This document shows positions 24,660 through 35,457 of a DNA stretch of 64,000 nucleotides, in pieces. The number at the start of each line of letters is the position of its first letter. The first letter of the stretch is position 1. The stretch spans positions 7,993 through 71,992 of the forward strand of contig JAULTD010000002.1 in assembly GCA_038801785.1 (NCBI GenBank), given 5' to 3'. A program made the translations under genes and the position numbers. Source of the DNA: Candidatus Methanomethylicaceae archaeon GD_Cm_T35_P0_bin.15 (GTDB taxonomy: Archaea > Thermoproteota > Methanomethylicia > Methanomethylicales > Methanomethylicaceae). The notes under the pieces are model-generated. The model did not search any database and was not told the origin of the DNA. It worked only from the letters and a program-made list of their open reading frames with translations.

Positions 24660-25025
24660 ATGGCTGACCGCCCGCGGCTGGTGCTTTTGATGGTGGCCAT
24701 TCAGGCAGCCTTTGTAGCAATCAACCTGAGCATGCCGTTCCTCACCGGAAGCTTCCTTTCGTATACATACCTCGATTTCCTGATGGCCTACCTGACCGCC
24801 ATAATCGAGCTGATCCTTGTCGTGGGGTTCCTGAGAGGCTCCAAGTGGGCGTGGTTCGCCGGCCTCTTCTACAGCGGCCTCTCAGTGCTGATGTACGCCG
24901 TCTCATACCTCTCCGTCCCCTCGGTGTTCTACATAATCCTGATATTCATGCGTATTGTGGTGATGGCCTCGCTGAGGAGCAGGAACGTCCGAGCCTACTT
25001 TGACATCACCCGGTTCACTCGATGA
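24660..25025 (+). CDS. hypothetical integral membrane protein
   Basis: 121 aa with four hydrophobic segments. Confidence 0.5.
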   Translation: MADRPRLVLLMVAIQAAFVAINLSMPFLTGSFLSYTYLDFLMAYLTAIIELILVVGFLRGSKWAWFAGLFYSGLSVLMYAVSYLSVPSVFYIILIFMRIVVMASLRSRNVRAYFDITRFTR

Positions 25026-25698
25026 GCGGGAATACCTCCTCCCTTATATATGAGAGGAACTCCGCCTCCTGGATCTCGCTGAACGCGGTCACCACCGAGC
25101 TCCTCGTGACGCCTGCTACTATGCCATACCTCTTGGATTTGAAGACTATGTACCAGATGACGCCGTGGCTCAGGTAGTCGTTGTAGAGCGCGGTGTTGGC
25201 CAAGCCCGTACCGTATAGCGAGAGCTTGTCGACATTAGGTATATCGACACCGTCGAAGAAGATCACCTTCGTATCGTCGGGGTTTGCCTCATGGAACGTC
25301 TTCAGCGTCTCCGGGAGGATCTTGGCCTCGACGATACCGCCTGTGGTGATAAAGAGTATCCTGCTCAGCTCATTGGCTATGTTGTTGGCAACCCTCTTCT
25401 TCTCCAGCACAATCAGGAGCGTCCTATCGCCGTTCTTGACGAAGAGGAAAGGCGCCTCAAGGGTCCTGACGACCAGCCTCTCCCCCTCCCTGTGGGCGAC
25501 CGTGAACGGGATGTCCTGCGAGAAGACGCCCTGCAGCGAGTCCGGGGTCAGGGCGAGCCTGTCTATCTCTGTGATGAGGTTGAACTTGTGCTCGTTCTGG
25601 GCATATTCCTCTTCCTTCCTGTACTCTTTCAGTTTTGCCGATATAGTCGGGAGGTCGATCTCCTCCCTGACTTTAAAGACCTTGCCAGCCAAAACCAT
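25015..25698 (-). CDS. hypothetical protein, co-transcribed downstream of topoisomerase IB
   Basis: 227 aa from ATG 25698 (the track opens at TTG 25743). No family recognised. Contains GDRTLLIVLEKK (D-x7-E-x-K), weakly reminiscent of PD-(D/E)xK cores. Confidence 0.55.
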   Translation of the reverse strand: MVLAGKVFKVREEIDLPTISAKLKEYRKEEEYAQNEHKFNLITEIDRLALTPDSLQGVFSQDIPFTVAHREGERLVVRTLEAPFLFVKNGDRTLLIVLEKKRVANNIANELSRILFITTGGIVEAKILPETLKTFHEANPDDTKVIFFDGVDIPNVDKLSLYGTGLANTALYNDYLSHGVIWYIVFKSKRYGIVAGVTRSSVVTAFSEIQEAEFLSYIREEVFPLIE

Positions 25699-25808: not shown

Positions 25809-27326
25809 TCAGCTCTCCTTGTCGATCCAGCCGAACCTCCTCTGCAGAGACTTGTTGTAGTAAAGCTTCCAGTCGTAATCGATCCTCCTCCCCCAGTTCG
25901 CGTAGACCCTGGGATCGATATAATTCTTCAGCGAGGTGTTGAGATTATAGTCCCGGGTAGCGGTTATGGCCTTTATCCTCAGTTCGAGCTCCCTGATCCT
26001 ATCCCTCTTGGCGTTCTTCTCCTTCAGGGCCCTGAGCCTCTCCCTCTTCTTCTCGAGCGACTCTTCCCAGTTCTTCGGCATCTTCCTCTTGTGGTTGCAG
26101 ACTATGGCTGCCTGCAGGTTTGCCATTGTGGCATAATACCTCTTGACGTAGGCGGGGTCCTCCGGCTTGACCTTCGCCTTCTCAAGCTCGCCCTTGGCGG
26201 TTATCGAGGCATGATAGGTCCTGAAGACCTTTGCCGAGAGCCCCGGCATCACCTCTGCGAGGTAGGCGTTGACCCTCTGGGACCTGATACCGTTGAAGAG
26301 GGTGCCGTTGCCCTCCTTCACGTACTCCATAAGGTTGTCCACTACCGGCTCCTGTGGCATAATCGTGCAGTTCCACCTGACGCAGTCCTTTCCCAAGAAA
26401 TCGAAATTGACCGATCCGTCCGGTCTGAACTTGATGTGCTCTGCCCTCAGGGTTGTTGCACCGACGGTATCTGCCTCATCGTCCCCCTTCTCATCGCCCA
26501 CCCTCATCTTGAGGTGATCGATCAGATAGCAGACCGTCGCGACCTTCCTCAGTGTGGGGTCCCTTGACCTGAGCCCGTCAAGGATGTGCTTCCTCACCTC
26601 CCTGATCTTCTTCTCCAGCTCCCACGCCTTGTCAAACTTCTCCACATCCCTTACCTGCTTTATGTACGCTGTATCGGAGAGCCAGACATACTTCATCTTG
26701 CCTCTCAGCTTGTCCTTCCACCTCGCGACCCAGAGCGAGGAGGGGTCAAAGAGGACTGCCCCCCACCTACCGCCGTTCGGCGGTTCGGGCACCTTGGCGT
26801 CGGGGGAGAGGTTCAGCGTGATATCTTCTGCCTTGAGGCCGGGTTTCCACACCCCCCTCATGGGGTGCTCCCCCCTGCCCATGAATATCGAGGCCGGTTC
26901 AACCATATAGTTGCTGATCTCCATCGGCATGCCATTGACATAGGCGAAGCCGTACTTCTGCCTGTTCTCCTCTCTGATCCTCTTCCTCTCGGCGGCGAGA
27001 GCCTTCCTCTCCTCCCTGCTCATCCCCTCCCTCTTCGCCCTCTCCGACTCTAGCCACTTCACGATCTGCGAAAAATCGAAATCGTCGGGGCCGACCGCCT
27101 CACTTATCCCCAGCGCCTTGCCGAAGTCGGCGAAGAAGTTCCTCACGAAGACCTTGTCCTTGACGTAATCGGTGCTGAGCTTCCTTGCCCAGGCGACAGC
27201 CATCTCCTCCTGATCCGGGGTCAGCGCCAGCTCCCTTCCCCTGAAGGTGATCCTGAAGCCCAGCGGCTTGTAGACCGGTATCAGCACGCCGTTAGTGATC
27301 AGCTGCCTGACCTCGATCTTTTCCAT
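25809..27326 (-). CDS. eukaryote-type DNA topoisomerase IB
   Basis: 505 aa. IFMGRGEHPMRG, DTVGATTLR, FDFLGKD, KVFRTYHASIT, AIVCNHKR and the C-terminal catalytic-Tyr context LNTSLKNYIDPRVY align motif by motif with eukaryotic Topo I. Confidence 0.92.
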   Translation of the reverse strand: MEKIEVRQLITNGVLIPVYKPLGFRITFRGRELALTPDQEEMAVAWARKLSTDYVKDKVFVRNFFADFGKALGISEAVGPDDFDFSQIVKWLESERAKREGMSREERKALAAERKRIREENRQKYGFAYVNGMPMEISNYMVEPASIFMGRGEHPMRGVWKPGLKAEDITLNLSPDAKVPEPPNGGRWGAVLFDPSSLWVARWKDKLRGKMKYVWLSDTAYIKQVRDVEKFDKAWELEKKIREVRKHILDGLRSRDPTLRKVATVCYLIDHLKMRVGDEKGDDEADTVGATTLRAEHIKFRPDGSVNFDFLGKDCVRWNCTIMPQEPVVDNLMEYVKEGNGTLFNGIRSQRVNAYLAEVMPGLSAKVFRTYHASITAKGELEKAKVKPEDPAYVKRYYATMANLQAAIVCNHKRKMPKNWEESLEKKRERLRALKEKNAKRDRIRELELRIKAITATRDYNLNTSLKNYIDPRVYANWGRRIDYDWKLYYNKSLQRRFGWIDKES

Positions 27327-27478: not shown

Positions 27479-29239
27479 ATGTCCAAGTTTACCATATCCG
27501 AAGTCATCCTTGAGAACTTCATGTCGTACGAGTATGCCAGGGTGCCCCTTAAACGCGGCCTGAACCTCATATCGGGCCCCAATGGCGCAGGAAAGTCCTC
27601 GATCCTCCTGGCGATATCCGTAGCGACCGGCCAGAGCTACACCGAGCGCTCGAGGAAGCTAGCCGACCTCATCCGCCGGGGTAAGGAGACCGCCCGCGTG
27701 ACCCTCGTCTTGGACAACAGTCCCGACGGAGGGAAGAGGCCTGTTCCCTTCATCAACAGCGACTCGGTGGCCGTCTCCAGGTACCTGAAGAAGGACGGGA
27801 CCTACTGGTTCGAGATCAACAACAGGGAAGCGGGCAAGTTCGACATCAACCGCCTCTTCAAGAGCGTAGGAATGAACCCCGACAACATGCTCGTGATAAT
27901 GCAGCAGAACATGATCGAGGAGTTCGCCATCACCTCGCCCGAGAAGAAGCTGAGGATGGTGGAGGAGGCCGTCGGCTTCTCGCAGTACCGGAAGGCGATC
28001 TACGATGCGGAGGAGAAGCTGAACCGCATACTCGGCGAGGAGGAGGCGACATCCCAGCTCCTCGTCAGCGCCGAGCAGACCCTCGCTTACTGGAAGGATC
28101 TATTCGACAGGTACAACGAGAAGAAGTCCCTCTCGGAGAAGAAGGCATACCTGGAGAGGGAAGCCGCCTGGGCCCAGATCCTGAAGAGCGAGCGGGCGCT
28201 GACAACGATCGAGGAGAGGCTGCGCCTCAAGGCGTCCCAGCTCGAGGACCTCAGGAAGAGGATAGCCGAGGCAGAAAAGTCTGCGGGGGGCCTCTGGGAG
28301 GATTACCTTGCGGAGAAGGAGTTCCTCCGGTCCCTCCTCTCGGACCGCGGCGGCGAGGACCAGATGAGGAAGCTCGGGGTGCTCGACGAGAAGATCGACG
28401 CGACGATCAAGGGCTATGTCGATGCGCGGGTCGAGGCCGCGGTGATGCGCTACCGCACAGAGGGGCTGGAGTCCGACATCAAAGAGTTGCGGTCATCGCT
28501 CAACGAAGCCAAGCAGAATTTGGAGGAGTCCAACAAGCTCAGGGAGAAGGCGGGCGACCGGATCGAGACCAGCAGATCCGCCCCCGAGATCACCGAGGAG
28601 CTGAAGTACGTCAACGCACACCTGCTCTCCCTCGGCGACGTCCCGGATGACGCGCCGTCCATGTATGAGGCCTACCTCAAGACCTACAACGAGCTAAAGG
28701 AGAAGGTGACCGTCGTCGGCGAGAACAGGAAGAGGACGATAGAGGAGCTCGATGAACGGAAGAAGGTCTGGAAGGGCATAATGGAGCGCCTCGTAGAGGA
28801 GATCAACCCGATCTACCGCGACGTCCTGGGGAGGGTCGGAGGCGTCGGATCGATCCGCCTCTCGGGGATGGAGGATCCGGATCGTGCGGGGATAGAGGTC
28901 ACTGTGGGGTTCAGGGGGGTCTCCCCCGTAGTGCTCGATGCCTATGCCCAGAGCGGCGGGGAGAGGGCGGTCTCGACGATGGCGTTCCTACTCTCGCTCC
29001 AGCACCAGCTCAAGTCGCCGGTTAGGGCGGTCGACGAGTTCGACGTGCATATGGATCCATCGAACAGGGAGGCGATGATGAGGATGCTCTTCTCGTTCAT
29101 GAGCGAGAACGCAGACGTCCAGTTCATAATGATCACGCCGAGTCAGCTAAGCGCTGTGGGTAAGTTCGCCAACATCGTCTTCGTCCAGAACGTGCGCGGG
29201 AGATCGGAGGTGGCAAAGGCTGCCATCGCCACGCCCTGA
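27479..29239 (+). CDS. short hinge-less SMC-like ATPase with SMC5/SMC6-like head motifs
   Basis: 586 aa. Walker A GPNGAGKS (33-40), Q-loop VIMQQN, signature QSGGERAVST (490-499), Walker B/D-loop VRAVDEFDVHMD, and QFIMITPSQL. Residues ~165-445 are heptad-rich and charged with a central SDRGGED break. No hinge domain and no CxxC hook. Confidence 0.85.
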   Translation: MSKFTISEVILENFMSYEYARVPLKRGLNLISGPNGAGKSSILLAISVATGQSYTERSRKLADLIRRGKETARVTLVLDNSPDGGKRPVPFINSDSVAVSRYLKKDGTYWFEINNREAGKFDINRLFKSVGMNPDNMLVIMQQNMIEEFAITSPEKKLRMVEEAVGFSQYRKAIYDAEEKLNRILGEEEATSQLLVSAEQTLAYWKDLFDRYNEKKSLSEKKAYLEREAAWAQILKSERALTTIEERLRLKASQLEDLRKRIAEAEKSAGGLWEDYLAEKEFLRSLLSDRGGEDQMRKLGVLDEKIDATIKGYVDARVEAAVMRYRTEGLESDIKELRSSLNEAKQNLEESNKLREKAGDRIETSRSAPEITEELKYVNAHLLSLGDVPDDAPSMYEAYLKTYNELKEKVTVVGENRKRTIEELDERKKVWKGIMERLVEEINPIYRDVLGRVGGVGSIRLSGMEDPDRAGIEVTVGFRGVSPVVLDAYAQSGGERAVSTMAFLLSLQHQLKSPVRAVDEFDVHMDPSNREAMMRMLFSFMSENADVQFIMITPSQLSAVGKFANIVFVQNVRGRSEVAKAAIATP

Positions 29240-29418: not shown

Positions 29419-30348
29419 TTGCCGCCGCACCAGCATGAACACAACAAGGCCTTTTACGAGGAGCTGGCGAGGATAGTCAACCTCTGCCAGAGCATCAGGA
29501 CTAAGAGCGACGATCCGTTCCTGGTGGACGTCCCCCAGAAACTTGCGATCCTGAAGAAGCTCCTGCCGAAGTGGAAAGCTCTCGATGAGCTCCTCATGGA
29601 TGCCGAGGCGCTGAACGAGCTCTCGCTCATGGTCAAGCTCCAAAGCGACTGGGTCAGGCGGCGCGCAACCGGCCTCTTCATAGATCCGTTTCTGATAGAG
29701 GTCAAGGTCAAGATGCTGAGCAAGGAGCACCTGGCGTCGGCGCTCCTATCCTCCTGGAGGCCTCTGATCGCCTCAGATCAGCTGACACCGCGGCGCCTTG
29801 CGCAGGCGATCGAATACTGGAAGGTCCTCCTCCCCCTCTCGCAGAGGATGGCGGAGGCCGAGCCCGTCCAGGAGACTGAGCAGAAAGTGATGACCGTATC
29901 CGACCTCATCCGCCTAAAGTTCCTCTCCGACAAGGTCTTCAACGAAGAGGTAAGAGGTATCGAGGCCGAGCTGGTCCGCAGCGCCGGAGGGGCCCCTGTC
30001 GACTACTGGAGCTTCGTGATCCGGGATACCTACGACGAGACCGTTATGAGGGCGTATGCCCTCAGTTTCCTCATCTCCAACGGGCACGCCGACCTCATCA
30101 TAAACCCGGTCGAGGAGACCATAGATATAGCCCCTGTCACAGGACCTGCGCTCAAGAAGGCGGGCAAGTCCGTACCGATCTCTATCCCCTACGAGAAATG
30201 GATGGAGATGCGCGGCCGCGGCAAGATCAGCCCGGCCGGAGGGCCTGAGCCGGCTCCGGGAACTGGGGCAGGCGGAGGCTGTCCTCCCGGGGCCGGGTCC
30301 GGTAGGGGCGGGATGGACTCGGAGGAAGGCGAGGGGACGATTACTTAA
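29419..30348 (+). CDS. kleisin-like (ScpA/Nse4-like) protein, tentative
   Basis: 309 aa. TTG start 7 nt after ggaggtga. The N-terminal helical segment DAEALNELSLMVKLQSDWVRRR resembles the ScpA 'LvmaAtLlxiKSrxL' region. The C-terminal ETVMRAYALSFLISNGHADLIINPVEETIDI resembles the ScpA winged helix (vvtFLAlLEL...v.l.Q...f.eI.i). Gly/Pro-rich tail. Confidence 0.5.
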   Translation: MPPHQHEHNKAFYEELARIVNLCQSIRTKSDDPFLVDVPQKLAILKKLLPKWKALDELLMDAEALNELSLMVKLQSDWVRRRATGLFIDPFLIEVKVKMLSKEHLASALLSSWRPLIASDQLTPRRLAQAIEYWKVLLPLSQRMAEAEPVQETEQKVMTVSDLIRLKFLSDKVFNEEVRGIEAELVRSAGGAPVDYWSFVIRDTYDETVMRAYALSFLISNGHADLIINPVEETIDIAPVTGPALKKAGKSVPISIPYEKWMEMRGRGKISPAGGPEPAPGTGAGGGCPPGAGSGRGGMDSEEGEGTIT

Positions 30349-30363
30349 GCGAGGGTGTGACAG

Positions 30364-30975
30364 ATGAGCGAAGATGCATCCCTATCAAGGAAGATAAAGA
30401 AGGCAACCCAGCTCCTGATGTACCAGCACCACAGGGTCCCGGGCGCCAAGGGCTGGGAACTGAGGAGGGTGGTCGGGAAAGACTATATGAGGGTGATAAA
30501 GCTGCTCGAGAGGCGGCTCGAGGACCTTGGCCTCGAGGTGAAGATCGTCTACAAGGACGGAATTGACCTTCCGAACCCTACCGCGGAAGACTTTGAGCAG
30601 GCTACGTTCTACGTCCTGTCCAAATCCCCCCTCCAGATGGGCGAGATCTCGCTCTCCGGGTGGAGGATAGATACCCTGGCTGTCTTGGCGGCGTCGCTGG
30701 CCTATATAATGTCCAAGCAGGGGAAGGCGCCGAGGCGGGACGTCGAGGAACTCCTCATGGAGAAGTTCCCTGACTGGAAGGTCGACTACGACCTGAACCG
30801 CTTCATCAAGCGAGGCTATCTCGACGAGGACGACTCGGGCAACCTCTTTGTAGGATGGAGGACACGGGCAGAGATCGACCGGAAGAAGCTCCTCGAGATA
30901 GTCGCTGGGTCGGTCACAGAGCCCGCCCCAGAGGCTGAGACCGGGCCTGATACAGGCATTGAGACCACGACCTGA
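30364..30975 (+). CDS. tandem winged-helix 'kite'-like protein (ScpB / MAGE-Nse3-like), tentative
   Basis: 203 aa. First WH: KATQLLMYQHHRVPGAKGWELRRVVGKDYMRVIKLLERRLEDLGLEV. Second WH: DTLAVLAASLAYIMSKQGKAPRRDVEELL...RFIKRGYLDEDDSGNLFVGWRTRAEIDRKKLLE. The order and spacing parallel my recollection of the MAGE homology domain. Confidence 0.5.
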   Translation: MSEDASLSRKIKKATQLLMYQHHRVPGAKGWELRRVVGKDYMRVIKLLERRLEDLGLEVKIVYKDGIDLPNPTAEDFEQATFYVLSKSPLQMGEISLSGWRIDTLAVLAASLAYIMSKQGKAPRRDVEELLMEKFPDWKVDYDLNRFIKRGYLDEDDSGNLFVGWRTRAEIDRKKLLEIVAGSVTEPAPEAETGPDTGIETTT

Positions 30976-32239: not shown

Positions 32240-35113
32240 TCAGGTGCCCGGGGGAGCCCTCCTCATCCTGCTCTTCAGGGCGCTCCTCTCCTCTTTCAGG
32301 ATGAGGTCCACTAGGTAGTCCAGGTCCCTGATCTCCGAGGTGATCAGAGTGATCGCCACCGGTCTGGGCAACCCCCTCGCGGCCAGGACGAGCGCGGCCA
32401 TCCCGCCATACCTCCCCACCAGCTCCCCGCTCTCGACTGCCGACTTGTACATCCTCCTGAACTTCTCCGCGACCTTGCCTGTCGCCGCCTTCTCGGCTGC
32501 CATCTGCTCCACTTCCGCCGGGTCATCTGTCAGGAGACCGATCCTCTCCGAGCCGCAGACCGGGCACCTCACCTCTCCCATGAATTTCTTGACCCTCGTG
32601 TTCTCAACGTACCCGAAGCAGTTTGTGCAGACCGCCACGCGCGACTCGTTGAGCAGCCTGGCTTTACCCGATTCGATGAGGAGGCGGCGCATCCTGTCCG
32701 CCGGCACCAGGTCCGTCTTCCAGCTCAGCTCCCTCATGCCTATCATGGAGATGGGTGAGAGCGGCTTGTCGGGATCGGTGACCACCACCCTGTACTTCCC
32801 CTCGCCCATATCCTTGACCACCCTTGCCGTGCCCTCCAAGTCCAGATCCTTGAAGAACACCTCCTTCATCCCCTCCCTGTAAATGACCGATCCCTTGAGC
32901 CCCTCTGCCAGCTGGTTGAGCCCGACGTCCTCAAAGTCTGCCTTCTTCTCCACTACCCCTGCCCTCTTCGCCACGTGGAGGAGCCTCCTCTTGAAGAGTC
33001 CTGTCCTCTCCACCGCGGCTTCGACCATACGCCCCACCTCGCCGGCATCCATCCCCTTCAGTATCTCCGCTATGACGTGGGGGCTTACTTCCGTCTTCAG
33101 GAAGATCCTGTACGCGTCCTGCGATGCGCCGACACCGCTCCCGGTCCTCTGGGCGAGCATGTAGCCGAGGAGCCTGGAGAGGGTCTTGTTTATCTGGAGC
33201 CCGAAGGCGCAGCTGATGATGACGTACCCCTCCCACTCCTCGACCGTCACCGTCCTGTCTGTAGGTACGGGGAATCCCCCCTCCACCTGCTCCCTGACCT
33301 CCCTCAGCGATCTCGCAAGGATCTCCGGTGAGACCCTGTACTCCTTCCGGATCTCCTCCGCCGCCTCTTCGACGGTCTTCCCCCCTGCCAGTATCTCAGC
33401 GCCCATGCCCCTTATGGCGCCGACCTCCTGCGCGATCTCGAAGGGCACCGGTATCTCGTCCCCGACCCAGTCGGGTATGGCCCCAGTAGGGTCGCTCTCC
33501 GCCCTGACATAGACCGAGTCCTTGAAGATGTGGATTATCTTCCAGGGCGATCCCCTGACTATGAACTTCACTCCCGGCTCCCCGTACTCCGCCACGAACG
33601 CCTCGTCGAGGGTGCCTATCGGCTCGTCCTTCTCCTCGTCCACGACGATGAAATGCTTCTCCTCGGGGATCATCGAGAGGTTCTCAAAGTAGTACTGGTA
33701 GAGGCCCTCCGAGGGGCGCGGCCTGAGCACTAGGTCGTTCTCCGGTATGTAGAGGGCAAGCCTCGGCCGCCTGGTGGACATGTACTCCAAGACCTCCACG
33801 ACCTCCTCCTCCTTCAGGTCCGCGAAGGGGTATGTCCTGCGCGAGATCTCCATGATATCGTCCACCGTCCACCTCTCCTCGTCGAGCAGGAGCCCGGCGA
33901 TCTGGTGGATCAGCACGTCCGTCGGCCTCTCCACTATCTCCACCTCCTCGAGCTCCTCCTTCAGCCCCCTCTTTACTATAACCACCGACTCGAGTGCGTC
34001 GTCAGAGTCTATCGTTATCACCTTCCCCTTCGAGGTCCCCCCCACCCAGTGCCCTGCCCTGCCGATCCTCTGCAGGAGCCGCGTGACCTGCCTGGGCGAG
34101 TTGTACTGGACGACTAGGTCGATGCTCCCTATGTCTATCCCGAGCTCCAGCGACGATGTGGAGACAACTCCCCTCAGCTCGCCCTTCTTCAGATCCGTCT
34201 CCACTCCCACCCTAGAGGATTTTGCGAGGCTGCCGTGGTGGATACCTACCGGTATGTCGATGTCCCACACCCTGAACCTGCTGGCGAGGACCTCCGCCTC
34301 CGACCTAGTGTTGGTGAAGATCAGCGTCGATCTGTGGCCGTCTATCAGCTCCCTTATCCTCCTGAGCCTCGCGGCCACCTCAGGGTAGGTGGCTATCCTC
34401 TCCGCGAGCATGGTGTCCTTCTGGCCCGCCTCGGGGAGCTCCACGTCTATGTCCATGCTCTTCGCCACAGAGACCCTGACGATCTCGCACTCCCTGTGAA
34501 CCCCGACTAGGAACTTTGCGACCTCACCCGGGGAGCCTATCGTCGCGGAGAGTCCGATGATCTGCGGCTCCGACTCCGTGATCCTCCTCAGCCTCTCGAG
34601 CGCGAAGGCGAGCTGGCTCCCCCTCTTGTCGTTCGTCAGCTCGTGAACCTCGTCGACCACGACCCACCTCACCTTGGCAAGGTGTCTCTTCATCGTCCTG
34701 CCAGGCAGGATCGCCTGGAGGGTCTCCGGCGTGGTTATCAGTATGTCCGGCGGGGCGAGCGCCTGTCTCCCCCTCTCCTTGACCTCTGTATCCCCGTGCC
34801 TGACCGAGACCTTCAGGTCGAGCTTGTTGCACCACCAAGTCAACCGCTCGAGCAGGTCCCTGTTGAGGGCCCTCAGGGGCGAGATGTAGAGCACCTTTAT
34901 GCCGCCCCTGCCACCCTCCCTCACCAACCTGTCCAGTATCGGGAGAAATGCTGCCTCGGTCTTCCCCGTCCCCGTCGGCGCGATGACCAGGACATTCTTT
35001 CCTCCGAGTATAAGCGGTATGGCGTCCCTCTGTATCTCTGTAAAGACCTTGAACCCTTTCTCCGCTACTATCCGCTGGACCGGTTTGGAGAGCTGCGATA
35101 ATATTCCGCTCAT
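32240..35113 (-). CDS. Lhr-type large superfamily-2 (DEVH) helicase
   Basis: About 957 aa. FTEIQRDAIPLILGGKNVLVIAPTGTGKTEAA, VVVDEVHEL, SAT, HHGSL and QRIGRAGH. The C-terminal region carries a zinc ribbon (CTNC...CPVCG). Confidence 0.9.
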   Translation of the reverse strand: MSGILSQLSKPVQRIVAEKGFKVFTEIQRDAIPLILGGKNVLVIAPTGTGKTEAAFLPILDRLVREGGRGGIKVLYISPLRALNRDLLERLTWWCNKLDLKVSVRHGDTEVKERGRQALAPPDILITTPETLQAILPGRTMKRHLAKVRWVVVDEVHELTNDKRGSQLAFALERLRRITESEPQIIGLSATIGSPGEVAKFLVGVHRECEIVRVSVAKSMDIDVELPEAGQKDTMLAERIATYPEVAARLRRIRELIDGHRSTLIFTNTRSEAEVLASRFRVWDIDIPVGIHHGSLAKSSRVGVETDLKKGELRGVVSTSSLELGIDIGSIDLVVQYNSPRQVTRLLQRIGRAGHWVGGTSKGKVITIDSDDALESVVIVKRGLKEELEEVEIVERPTDVLIHQIAGLLLDEERWTVDDIMEISRRTYPFADLKEEEVVEVLEYMSTRRPRLALYIPENDLVLRPRPSEGLYQYYFENLSMIPEEKHFIVVDEEKDEPIGTLDEAFVAEYGEPGVKFIVRGSPWKIIHIFKDSVYVRAESDPTGAIPDWVGDEIPVPFEIAQEVGAIRGMGAEILAGGKTVEEAAEEIRKEYRVSPEILARSLREVREQVEGGFPVPTDRTVTVEEWEGYVIISCAFGLQINKTLSRLLGYMLAQRTGSGVGASQDAYRIFLKTEVSPHVIAEILKGMDAGEVGRMVEAAVERTGLFKRRLLHVAKRAGVVEKKADFEDVGLNQLAEGLKGSVIYREGMKEVFFKDLDLEGTARVVKDMGEGKYRVVVTDPDKPLSPISMIGMRELSWKTDLVPADRMRRLLIESGKARLLNESRVAVCTNCFGYVENTRVKKFMGEVRCPVCGSERIGLLTDDPAEVEQMAAEKAATGKVAEKFRRMYKSAVESGELVGRYGGMAALVLAARGLPRPVAITLITSEIRDLDYLVDLILKEERSALKSRMRRAPPGT

Positions 35114-35457
35114 AAATGTAATGACGAGTACTTGTCCCCCCATAAATATCCTTTTCCCGTACCATCATAATCGGAAAGATCGACGGGGGACAGCGAGGGA
35201 AGCCAGTCCATATGCTGGCATTCTCGTGTAACGGCCGCTGATCTCGGGTTACGCCGCCCAGACCACCAAAGGGCACGCTGACCCCTTGCGCCCTCGGCTT
35301 CCCCCGGACCATGAATAGGCTCCCCTGCCGGCAGATCGTCGAATACACAAGGTATATCTGTGACTGATCACAGAAAGAAGACTGGGTCAGGTGCCCGGGC
35401 CGCCCAGCGGCTGATGATGAAAGCTGATTGCGGCCGTAGCATCAGGAGGCAAGCTGA

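What the first reader, a model, noticed from the sequence alone, without database searches (positions are those of the whole stretch)
27479..29239. SMC-like ATPase lacks a hinge and a zinc hook and has a roughly one-third-length coiled coil
Head halves occupy about residues 1-165 and 445-586. The ~280 residues between them are charged and heptad-like, with a single central break (LLSDRGGEDQMRKLG, residues ~286-300, nt ~28335-28380). There is no globular hinge (canonical SMC hinges are ~150 aa) and no CxxC hook as in Rad50. That predicts an antiparallel arm of only ~130-140 residues and an unknown dimerisation mode at the apex. The architecture differs from canonical SMC, MukB and Rad50, and it raises the question of how, or whether, DNA is entrapped or loop-extruded.
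Basis: seen in the sequence. Interest (0 to 1): 0.6.

Follow-up and report, generated by a model that had tools for sequence, protein, structure and literature searches.

The report
Hinge-less mini-SMC of archaeal SMC5/6-like complex
This archaeal gene encodes a half-size relative of the eukaryotic Smc5/Smc6 chromosome-maintenance ATPases whose short arm ends in a bare hairpin, without the usual hinge or zinc hook, so it offers a natural test of whether such complexes need a dimerisation domain at the arm tip.

Summary
The ORF at 27479-29239 is intact and encodes 586 aa. It has SMC head halves at residues 1-167 and 452-586, contains no cysteine, and has no hinge. AlphaFold2 (pLDDT 83.6) gives an all-helical arm: a 121-residue ascending helix (about 18 nm), a 4-residue turn at 289-292, and a descending strand broken by a joint-like discontinuity at 353-391.

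It is neither a fragment nor an orphan. It belongs to the published "SMC5/6-related archaeal SMC" clade. It sits in a conserved operon with an Nse4-like kleisin (29419-30348) and an Nse1/Nse3-like kite (30364-30975). Homologues occur in 174 of 396 high-quality Thermoproteota genomes, and every listed open frame is 762 aa or shorter. None of the 62 genomes of its class has a Pfam SMC hinge.

All length variation in the family maps to the tip. Basal relatives keep a hinge. A Bathyarchaeia paralogue has full-length arms and a central CxxC.

The papers and supplements I could search describe the clade and the operon but do not mention hinge loss.

How the protein dimerises is inferred, not shown. 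My leading model is head, kleisin and kite bridging. Tip-to-tip contact as in RecN is the main rival.

The parts
27479..29239 (+). Short SMC subunit (586 aa, P0001) of an SMC5/6-related complex
   Evidence: ORF. Pfam SMC_N 112 bits. Best PDB sequence matches are yeast Smc5 (2.7e-28) and Smc6. AF2 model.
27479..27979 (+). N-terminal head half (residues 1-167), including Walker A GPNGAGKS (residues 33-40, nt 27575-27598) and the Q-loop Q143
   Evidence: Invariant columns G33-S40 and Q143 in the 76-sequence alignment. DSSP of the model.
27980..28342 (+). Ascending arm helix (residues 168-288, 121 aa), with a heptad register shift at 209-222
   Evidence: AF2 gives a continuous helix with pLDDT 88-95. 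Heptad analysis.
28343..28354 (+). Apex turn (residues 289-292, DRGG): a bare hairpin with no hinge and no hook
   Evidence: AF2 turn. This is the only site of length variation in the family, with up to 79 inserted columns in relatives. It is the least conserved stretch of the protein apart from the last six C-terminal residues.
28355..28534 (+). Descending distal arm helix (residues 293-352)
   Evidence: AF2. Conserved 3-4 hydrophobic spacing from 296 to 348.
28535..28651 (+). Joint-like discontinuity (residues 353-391) with family-invariant R361 and T364 and nearly invariant R366
   Evidence: AF2 helix breaks at 353-367 and 386-391. Invariant and nearly invariant columns. The best fold match is 5xei, an Smc head plus coiled coil plus joint construct (E 7.5e-25).
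28652..28831 (+). Descending neck helix (residues 392-451)
   Evidence: AF2. Heptad pattern.
28832..29239 (+). C-terminal head half (residues 452-586): signature QSGGER (491-496), Walker B and D-loop VDEFDVHMD (518-526), and ITP554 in place of the H-loop histidine
   Evidence: Invariant columns. The same DEFDVxMD and (I/L)TP motifs occur in Smc5- and Smc6-type sequences.
29419..30348 (+). Nse4-like kleisin (309 aa, with a lineage-specific Gly/Pro-rich C-terminal tail)
   Evidence: The family profile's only PDB match is EID3/NSE4B of human SMC5/6 (E 3.1e-6). All 24 members match Pfam Nse4_C (best 7.6e-8). It lies directly after the SMC gene in 18 of 20 loci.
30364..30975 (+). Nse1/Nse3 (MAGE)-like kite, tandem winged helix (203 aa)
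   Evidence: AF2 pLDDT 78. Top fold matches are Nse3 in 7dg2_C (E 1.7e-5, TM 0.51) and MAGE-G1/NSE1 (5hvq, 5wy5), followed by JetB, MukE and ScpB. Present in the operon in 17 of 20 loci.
25015..25698 (-). Conserved 227-aa protein of unknown fold; a candidate additional partner or regulator (association only)
   Evidence: Neighbour of the SMC gene within about 3 kb, mostly divergently transcribed, in 9 of 20 loci. Its distribution across families nearly mirrors that of the SMC (171 against 178 of 401 genomes). No Pfam or PDB match.
32240..35143 (-). Lhr-type DNA helicase, a recurrent neighbour of the operon (context only)
   Evidence: Pfam DEAD, DEAD_assoc and WH_Lhr. It lies convergently next to the kite in 9 of 20 loci from several families.

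Best explanation
The gene encodes the SMC subunit of an archaeal SMC5/6-related SMC-kleisin-kite complex in a naturally minimised form. It comprises the ATPase head, neck, joint and about 60 further residues of antiparallel coiled coil, closed by a 4-residue hairpin. It has neither a hinge nor a zinc hook. This much is shown.

The rest is inferred. Two copies are held together at the head end by three things: ATP-driven head engagement; the Nse4-like kleisin bridging the neck of one SMC and the cap of the other; and a kite dimer on the kleisin. The two 18-nm arms lie side by side or splay, and are not covalently or domain-locked at the tip. The complex would then act as an ATP-gated DNA clamp or tether on top of the engaged heads and within the kleisin compartment. 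Its likely role is DNA repair or replication-associated chromosome maintenance, not long-range ring-type loop extrusion.

In Methanomethylicia it appears to be the only SMC-kleisin complex. The bare tip most likely arose by loss of an ancestral hinge.
For: Identity:
- The best PDB sequence hits are Smc5 and Smc6 heads.
- The protein shares the DEFDVxMD and ITP motifs with Smc5- and Smc6-type sequences.
- The published clade includes Verstraetearchaeota and other TACK lineages (PMC8665677).
- TACK and Asgard operons of SMC, Nse4-like kleisin and Nse1/3-like kite are described in bioRxiv 10.1101/2024.01.07.573240.

Partners:
- Kleisin.
- Kite.
- Operon conserved in 18 of 20 loci.

Architecture:
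- AF2 model.
- Best fold match is an Smc head-coiled coil-joint construct.
- 0 Cys in the protein and no CxxC in 76 relatives.
- All catalytic motifs are invariant.

Distribution:
- Present in 42 of 62 class genomes and 174 of 396 high-quality phylum genomes. All listed open frames are 762 aa or shorter.
- No Pfam hinge in 0 of 62 class genomes, while the control search scored 10 of 14 reference genomes.
- No ScpA and no canonical SMC in the window's own genome.

No conserved tip:
- The apex region is the most variable stretch of the protein apart from the last six C-terminal residues, and it is the only indel site.

Hinge ancestral:
- Hinge-bearing P0172 and P0202, and the eukaryotic Smc5/6-type sequences, branch outside the main short clade.

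Repair context:
- An Lhr helicase is adjacent in 9 of 20 loci.
Against: - No oligomeric state was computed or measured. Only monomer predictions were available, so head-end-only dimerisation is an inference from the absence of a conserved tip.
- A weakly conserved tip can still dimerise, as coiled-coil contacts tolerate sequence drift.
- A hydrophobic patch wider than an a/d stripe (L272, W273, Y276, L277) lies three helical turns below the tip in Methanomethylicia. It could be an arm-arm or partner contact.
- A Bathyarchaeia paralogue carries a CxxC exactly at the tip position. This suggests that tips of two molecules can meet.
- The conserved neighbour orf227 could be an unrecognised tip or arm partner.
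- The window's own genome is only 75% complete.
- Pfam's hinge model missed the divergent hinge of P0172, so Pfam-based absence of a hinge is not absolute.
- Tree support for hinge loss on the stem is moderate (SH-aLRT 84, quick search).
Confidence: 0.65

Rival explanations
1. Same protein and same complex, but the two hairpin tips associate directly. This could be as an antiparallel or four-helix contact like the coiled-coil dimerisation of bacterial RecN. The result would be a small closed SMC-kleisin ring, or an end-to-end tether, that can still entrap or bridge DNA.
For: - RecN-type proteins show that a hinge-less, hook-less coiled-coil tip can dimerise (established knowledge; not tested here).
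- A paralogue in the same clade placed a CxxC exactly at the tip. That position is useful only if tips meet.
- A conserved hydrophobic patch at 272-277 lies near the tip in close relatives.
- Canonical SMC function is thought to need a closed arm compartment.
Against: - Tip sequence and length are the least conserved features of the family. Insertions of 0-79 columns occur there, and no residue in 288-295 is conserved.
- The hydrophobic patch is not conserved outside Methanomethylicia.
- The hook paralogue stands alone, away from the kleisin-kite operon, so it may work differently.
Confidence: 0.25
2. The arm tip or joint is closed or regulated by an additional subunit. The candidate is the conserved 227-aa protein encoded next to the operon, mostly divergently (25015-25698, minus strand). 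The precedent is the LmuB tip contacting LmuA and LmuC in Lamassu.
For: - It neighbours the SMC gene within about 3 kb in 9 of 20 loci.
- Its family-level distribution almost matches that of the SMC across 401 genomes.
- The Lamassu precedent is described in PMC12663957.
Against: - The evidence is association only. There is no fold, no family match and no interaction data.
- The shared distribution could reflect shared ancestry of lineages.
- Several genomes have one gene without the other (for example f18: 26 of 32 against 14 of 32).
Confidence: 0.07
3. It is a member of another SMC-like family (Rad50/SbcC, ASRP/ClsN/Sph, arcadin-4, RecN) or the ATPase of a defence system (Lamassu LmuB, Wadjet JetC).
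For: - Its size (586 aa) resembles ASRP, RecN and short LmuB.
- It gives weak matches to ASRP (59 bits), Rad50 (66 bits), RecN (24 bits) and PADLOC LmuB (78 bits).
Against: - All these scores lie far below the curated cut-offs (300, 700 and 408 bits). SMC models score higher (177 bits) and Smc5/6 heads are the best PDB matches.
- It has no CxxC.
- Its partners are an Nse4-like kleisin and an Nse1/3-like kite, and neither has a PADLOC match.
- It is carried almost universally within lineages, unlike patchily distributed defence islands.
Confidence: 0.02
4. The short length is an artefact: a gene fragment, a frameshift or a misassembly of a full-length SMC.
For: None beyond the unusual length.
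Against: - The reading frame is intact, with both head halves and all motifs.
- Dozens of independent assemblies encode 572-605-aa orthologues without internal stops.
- The nearest 50%-identity cluster representatives are mostly 548-685 aa.
Confidence: 0.01

Closest known systems
SMC5/6-related archaeal SMC ('SMC5/6-related aSMC', Yoshinaga & Inagaki 2021, PMC8665677; SMC5/6-related operons of TACK and Asgard archaea, van Hooff et al., bioRxiv 10.1101/2024.01.07.573240)
   Same: Same clade, including Verstraetearchaeota (now Methanomethylicia). Same operon of SMC, Nse4-like kleisin and Nse1/3-like kite. Heads are closest to Smc5/Smc6.
   Different: Nothing differs in membership. However, the main texts, and the held supplements of the preprint, do not mention that these proteins are half-length and lack a hinge. 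Word searches for 'hinge', 'shorter' and 'truncated' found only generic SMC descriptions. The preprint's general scheme draws SMCs as hinge dimers.
Eukaryotic Smc5/Smc6 with Nse4 and Nse1/Nse3
   Same: Best sequence and structure matches for the head, the kleisin and the kite. Shares the DEFDVxMD and (I/L)TP motifs.
   Different: The eukaryotic proteins are about 1,100 aa, with about 50-nm arms, an elbow and a hinge. They form heterodimers and also have Nse2, Nse5 and Nse6. This protein is 586 aa, has no hinge, and is presumably a homodimer.
Engineered Smc head-coiled coil-joint constructs (Pyrococcus yayanosii Smc, PDB 5xei)
   Same: Best fold match (E 7.5e-25, TMq 0.57): head, neck and joint.
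   Different: 5xei is an artificial truncation of a full-length hinge-bearing Smc. Here the truncated layout is the native gene, with about 60 more arm residues beyond the joint.
Bacterial RecN
   Same: Works like it in layout: about 550-600 aa, an SMC-type head, and a short antiparallel coiled coil with neither hinge nor zinc hook (from established knowledge).
   Different: Not a member: TIGR00634 scores 24 bits against a cut-off of 408. RecN has no kleisin or kite partners and is bacterial.
Short Lamassu LmuB (PMC12663957)
   Same: An SMC-like ATPase of about 600 aa with an arm of about 20 nm or less. Its tip contacts partner proteins and is not a hinge.
   Different: LmuB derives from SbcC/Rad50 and belongs to a defence system with a nuclease effector. 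Here the heads are SMC5/6-type and the partners are a kleisin and a kite with no PADLOC match.
ASRP family (coalescin ClsN, Sph1/2; PMC9389158) and Rad50
   Same: Archaeal SMC-superfamily proteins of similar size (ASRP about 600 aa).
   Different: These carry a zinc hook (CxxC) and form separate clades. This protein has no cysteine and scores 59 bits against the ASRP cut-off of 300. The same genome separately encodes two Rad50/ASRP-like CxxC proteins.

Membership tests
SMC5/6-related archaeal SMC clade | ATPase head closer to Smc5/Smc6 than to canonical SMC | tested here: met
   The top PDB sequence hits are Smc5 (2.7e-28) and Smc6 (5e-25), ahead of prokaryotic Smc. It shares the DEFDVxMD and ITP motifs, which the canonical group lacks. 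The head tree is unrooted with moderate support. Published trees place the Verstraetearchaeota sequences in this clade.
SMC5/6-related archaeal SMC clade | Operon with an Nse4-like kleisin | tested here: met
   The family profile matches only EID3/NSE4B in PDB (3.1e-6). All 24 members match Pfam Nse4_C. Adjacent in 18 of 20 loci.
SMC5/6-related archaeal SMC clade | Operon with an Nse1/3-like kite | tested here: met
   The top fold matches of the AF2 model are Nse3, MAGE-G1 and NSE1. Sequence-level support is weak: 2 of 46 members match MAGE and 1 of 46 matches SMC_Nse1.
SMC5/6-related archaeal SMC clade | TACK/Asgard distribution | tested here: met
   Homologues are named Methanomethylicia, Nitrososphaerales, Bathyarchaeia and Hadarchaeales. 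Present in 174 of 396 high-quality Thermoproteota genomes.
Canonical SMC (Smc-ScpAB type, TIGR02169) | Complete ABC-type head motifs (Walker A, Q-loop, signature, Walker B, D-loop) | tested here: met
   Invariant columns G33-S40, Q143, Q491-R496 and D519-D522.
Canonical SMC (Smc-ScpAB type, TIGR02169) | Hinge dimerisation domain (PF06470) | tested here: not met
   No Pfam hinge match. The AF2 middle region is entirely helical with a 4-residue turn.
Canonical SMC (Smc-ScpAB type, TIGR02169) | Antiparallel coiled-coil arm of about 47-50 nm | tested here: not met
   The ascending helix is 121 residues, about 18 nm.
Canonical SMC (Smc-ScpAB type, TIGR02169) | Score above the curated model cut-off | tested here: not met
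   TIGR02169 scores 177 bits against a cut-off of 729.
Rad50/SbcC | Zinc hook (CxxC) at the coiled-coil apex | tested here: not met
   0 Cys in the protein and no CxxC in 76 relatives.
Rad50/SbcC | Curated model score; Mre11/SbcD nuclease partner | tested here: not met
   The best Rad50 model scores 66 bits against a cut-off of 700. The neighbours are a kleisin and a kite, not a nuclease. Mre11 was not searched genome-wide.
ASRP (ClsN/Sph) | NF045487 score and zinc hook | tested here: not met
   59 bits against a cut-off of 300. No CxxC.
RecN | TIGR00634 score | tested here: not met
   24 bits against a cut-off of 408. The resemblance is in layout only.
Lamassu (LmuB) | LmuB-type ATPase with LmuA effector and LmuC partners | tested here: not met
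   The PADLOC LmuB match of 78 bits is a generic head match. The three neighbouring proteins have no PADLOC match.

The most novel reading that the evidence does not exclude
A whole, widespread lineage of true SMC-kleisin-kite complexes, sister to eukaryotic Smc5/6 and the only SMC complex in Methanomethylicia, has dispensed with any dedicated dimerisation domain at the arm tip. SMC-type genome maintenance would then not require a hinge-closed arm compartment. Within the same clade the tip has three states: hinge, bare hairpin and CxxC hook. That would cross the accepted split between hinge-type and CxxC-type SMC proteins.
Probability: 0.4. Interest if true: 0.75.

Novelty: new variant of a known kind. 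Interest (0 to 1): 0.6.

Why it matters
Current models of SMC action (ring entrapment, segment capture, loop extrusion) assume two long arms joined at a hinge. The field sorts SMC-superfamily proteins into hinge types and CxxC types (PMC12663957).

This natural SMC-kleisin-kite complex has 18-nm arms, no hinge and no hook, yet is conserved across much of Thermoproteota. It is closely related to the ancestor of eukaryotic Smc5/6. That makes two questions directly testable:
- What the hinge and the long arms are actually needed for.
- What the minimal functional SMC module is.

It also bears on what the pre-eukaryotic Smc5/6 ancestor looked like. The protein is small, thermophile-derived and naturally cysteine-free, so it suits structural work and engineered cysteine cross-linking.

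The caveat is that the family and its operon are already published. What is new is the architecture and its variability, not the existence of the genes.

Tried and rejected
1. Fragment or misassembly. Rejected on the lengths of orthologues and the intact motifs.
2. Divergent globular hinge in the middle. Rejected by AF2 and DSSP, and by the absence of a Pfam match.
3. Rad50, ASRP, arcadin-4, RecN or RecF membership. All scores lie far below the curated cut-offs.
4. Defence system. PADLOC gives only generic head matches and nothing for the partners.
5. Canonical SMC, ScpA or hinge elsewhere in the genome or class. None was found. Caveats are the 75% completeness of the own genome and the limited sensitivity of the Pfam hinge model.
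6. Proving that the CxxC paralogue arose from inside the short clade. The ML tree places it there (SH-aLRT 92), but the AU test does not reject the alternative (p = 0.41). I therefore claim only that it is a close paralogue.
7. Identifying the conserved 227-aa neighbour.
8. Sequence-level identification of the kite. Support was weak and the PDB profile search gave nothing. Only the fold comparison succeeded.
9. Dimer modelling. It was not possible because the structure tool predicts single chains only.
10. Looking up contigs for the hook, hinge and other relatives found only by the representative search. I used a genome-collection scan with the hook protein P0134 instead.
Full report
**Observation**

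The ORF at 27479-29239 (+) is open and encodes 586 aa. Pfam SMC_N matches in the split manner typical of SMC proteins, across residues 6-555 (112 bits). The protein contains no cysteine, and none of 76 aligned family members has a CxxC.

AlphaFold2 with that alignment gives a confident model (mean pLDDT 83.6):
- N-terminal head half: residues 1-167.
- One continuous helix: 168-288.
- Helix: 293-352.
- A discontinuity at 353-391: a short helix flanked by loops, with Pro369, Pro389 and Pro393.
- Helix: 392-451.
- C-terminal head half: 452-586.

Nothing globular lies between the head halves. Heptad analysis shows hydrophobic residues at 75-88% of a/d positions against 15-35% elsewhere. The register changes at 209-222 and at the apex. 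In close relatives the conserved hydrophobic positions keep a 3-4 spacing up to residue 287 and resume at 296.

The arm is thus about 121 residues ascending, or about 18 nm. That is roughly 0.4 of the ~47-nm arm of canonical Smc (figure from the abstract of PMC5344682, listed). The arm also contains a joint-like break. The best structural match in PDB is 5xei, an engineered Pyrococcus yayanosii Smc head-coiled coil-joint construct (E 7.5e-25, TMq 0.57).

**Not an artefact**

More than 3,800 homologues were found. The closest are 572-605 aa at 60-78% identity, from Methanomethylicia (Verstraetearchaeota). The next are 607-683 aa from Nitrososphaerales, Bathyarchaeia and Hadarchaeales.

Further counts:
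- In the window's class, 42 of 62 genomes encode it without internal stops.
- In the phylum, 174 of 396 high-quality genomes do. Every listed open frame is 762 aa or shorter.
- An exhaustive HMMER search of 1.8 billion cluster representatives found that the nearest full-length relatives are almost all 548-685 aa.

**What it is**

The best PDB sequence matches are yeast Smc5 (2.7e-28) and Smc6 (5e-25), ahead of prokaryotic Smc heads. The protein shares a Walker B/D-loop of the DEFDVxMD type, and ITP in place of the H-loop histidine, with Smc5- and Smc6-type sequences. The canonical-SMC group in my sample lacks both. Curated models for canonical SMC, Rad50, ASRP, arcadin-4, RecN and RecF all score far below their cut-offs.

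The next gene downstream (29419-30348) is an Nse4-like kleisin. A profile of 24 homologues has a single PDB match, EID3/NSE4B of human SMC5/6 (3.1e-6). All 24 homologues match Pfam Nse4_C (best 7.6e-8).

The gene after that (30364-30975) is a kite. Its AF2 model (pLDDT 78) best matches Nse3 in the Nse1-Nse3-Nse4 complex (7dg2_C, E 1.7e-5, TM 0.51) and MAGE-G1/NSE1. JetB, MukE and ScpB follow.

In 20 loci drawn from many Thermoproteota families, the SMC-kleisin-kite order is kept in 18.

This is the "SMC5/6-related archaeal SMC" of Yoshinaga & Inagaki (PMC8665677). It is also the SMC5/6-related operon of TACK and Asgard archaea described by van Hooff et al. (bioRxiv 10.1101/2024.01.07.573240). 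Two earlier notes of this scan reached the same reading for the operon and the kite. I re-tested both independently.

**Sole SMC complex in this lineage**

The window's own genome is 75% complete. It has no Pfam SMC hinge, no ScpA and no canonical-length SMC. Its other SMC-superfamily genes are two Rad50/ASRP-like proteins of 687 and 678 aa with a central CxxC.

None of the 62 genomes of the class has a Pfam hinge match, including the 35 high-quality ones. The same search scored 10 of 14 control genomes. One caveat applies: the Pfam hinge model misses some divergent hinges, as the next section shows.

**Variability of the tip**

Within the family, every length difference maps to one site, immediately after residue 289. 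Relatives insert up to 79 alignment columns there. The apex region is also the least conserved stretch of the protein apart from the last six C-terminal residues.

The distance from Walker A to the signature motif ranges from 429 to 563 residues among the short representatives, against 459 here. That implies arms of roughly 105-175 residues.

Three Bathyarchaeota representatives of 1,016-1,047 aa have heads 44-46% identical to the query. They carry a C-D-K-C-G motif at the exact midpoint, so they have a full-length arm with a zinc-hook-like tip. One such gene (L048) stands alone among housekeeping genes. Its genome also holds a short SMC-kleisin operon and a 1,217-aa canonical SMC. The CxxC form is therefore a paralogue.

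Two more distant relatives keep a hinge:
- P0202 (835 aa, Asgard) matches Pfam SMC_hinge.
- P0172 (982 aa) has a middle region that matches the P0202 hinge (1.2e-9), although Pfam missed it.

In a head-only tree (94 sequences, quick IQ-TREE search):
- The CxxC forms are monophyletic (99).
- They sit among the short Bathyarchaeia forms (92).
- P0172 is sister to the main short clade (84).
- The eukaryotic Smc5- and Smc6-type groups lie outside.

An AU test does not reject placing the CxxC forms outside the short clade (p = 0.41). The order of events is therefore only suggested. The most parsimonious reading is an ancestral hinge, one loss on the stem of the main TACK clade, and a later tip elaboration in one Bathyarchaeia paralogue.

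**Mechanism**

Shown:
- A catalytically complete SMC head (invariant motifs).
- Kleisin and kite partners.
- A short arm with a joint.
- A tip without a domain.

Inferred:
- The complex is a homodimer. It is held at the head end by ATP engagement, by the kleisin bridging the neck of one SMC and the cap of the other, and by a kite dimer.
- The arms are not locked at the tip.
- It acts as an ATP-gated DNA clamp or tether.

An Lhr-type repair helicase lies next to the operon in 9 of 20 loci. This, together with the kinship to Smc5/6, points to repair or replication-associated maintenance.

The main rival is tip-to-tip dimerisation as in RecN. It cannot be excluded, for two reasons. A CxxC evolved at this very position in a paralogue. 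A hydrophobic patch wider than an a/d stripe (L272, W273, Y276, L277) lies near the tip in Methanomethylicia, though it is not conserved more widely.

A third possibility is an extra partner. A 227-aa protein (25015-25698, minus strand) neighbours the SMC gene within about 3 kb, mostly divergently, in 9 of 20 loci. Its family-by-family distribution almost matches that of the SMC: 171 against 178 of 401 genomes. It has no Pfam or PDB match.

A defence role is unlikely. The partner proteins have no PADLOC match, and the genes are carried almost universally within lineages.

**Novelty**

The clade and the operon are published. What I could not find in those papers is any statement that these proteins are half-length and hinge-less, or that the clade contains hinge, hairpin and CxxC tips. 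I searched the main texts, the held supplements of the preprint and the ASRP paper, and ran three further literature searches. No supplements of PMC8665677 were held, so its supplements went unsearched.

A 2025 paper still divides SMC-superfamily proteins into hinge and CxxC types (PMC12663957). I therefore rate the finding as a new variant of a known kind. It is of moderate-to-good interest, and its mechanism is open.

Noticed in passing
window 25015-25698 (-): A conserved 227-aa protein with no Pfam or PDB match. It neighbours the short-SMC gene within about 3 kb, mostly divergently, in 9 of 20 loci across Thermoproteota. Its family-level distribution nearly mirrors that of the SMC (171 against 178 of 401 genomes). 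It may be an extra subunit or a regulator.
   Followed up: partly
L048:1657-4860 (Bathyarchaeota MAG JAOZHB010000112); also P0134, P0139, P0141: Paralogues of the short SMC, 1,016-1,076 aa long, with full-length arms and a central C-D-K-C-G (zinc-hook-like) motif at the tip. The L048 gene stands alone, away from the kleisin and kite. Its genome also has a short SMC-kleisin operon and a 1,217-aa canonical SMC. A CxxC tip on an SMC5/6-type head does not appear in the papers I searched.
   Followed up: partly
window 32240-35143 (-): An Lhr-type helicase lies convergently next to the kite gene in 9 of 20 loci from several families. In this window one Sso10a-family gene separates the two. This suggests a link to DNA repair.
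   Followed up: partly
window 25809-27326 (-): A eukaryote-type topoisomerase IB lies between the 227-aa gene and the SMC gene. Among the 20 loci examined it occupies that position only in the two from the window's own family (L028, L046). Elsewhere the 227-aa gene abuts the SMC gene directly.
   Followed up: partly
window 30226-30345 (+): The kleisin of this genome ends in a Gly/Pro-rich tail of about 40 residues (GGPEPAPGTGAGGG...) that is absent from all 23 aligned relatives. Its reading frame also starts at TTG, 180 bp after the SMC stop, whereas in relatives the two genes abut or overlap. This could be a lineage-specific extension or a local sequence change.
   Followed up: no
window 28559-28576 (+), SMC residues 361-366: R361 and T364 are invariant and R366 is nearly invariant in a loop of the joint, across all 76 family members. 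This is the most conserved feature of the arm. It could be a DNA-contact or partner-contact site.
   Followed up: no
L058:616-2679 and L059:657-2693 (own genome, contigs C6 and C5): Two paralogous Rad50/ASRP-like proteins (687 and 678 aa) with a central CxxC. Both score below the curated Rad50 and ASRP cut-offs, and both lie near contig starts.
   Followed up: partly
P0200 and P0205 (628 and 633 aa, metagenomic): Two short, hinge-less proteins group with the hinge-bearing Asgard protein P0202 and not with the main short clade (SH-aLRT 86). This hints at a second, independent hinge loss. Their taxonomy was not checked.
   Followed up: no
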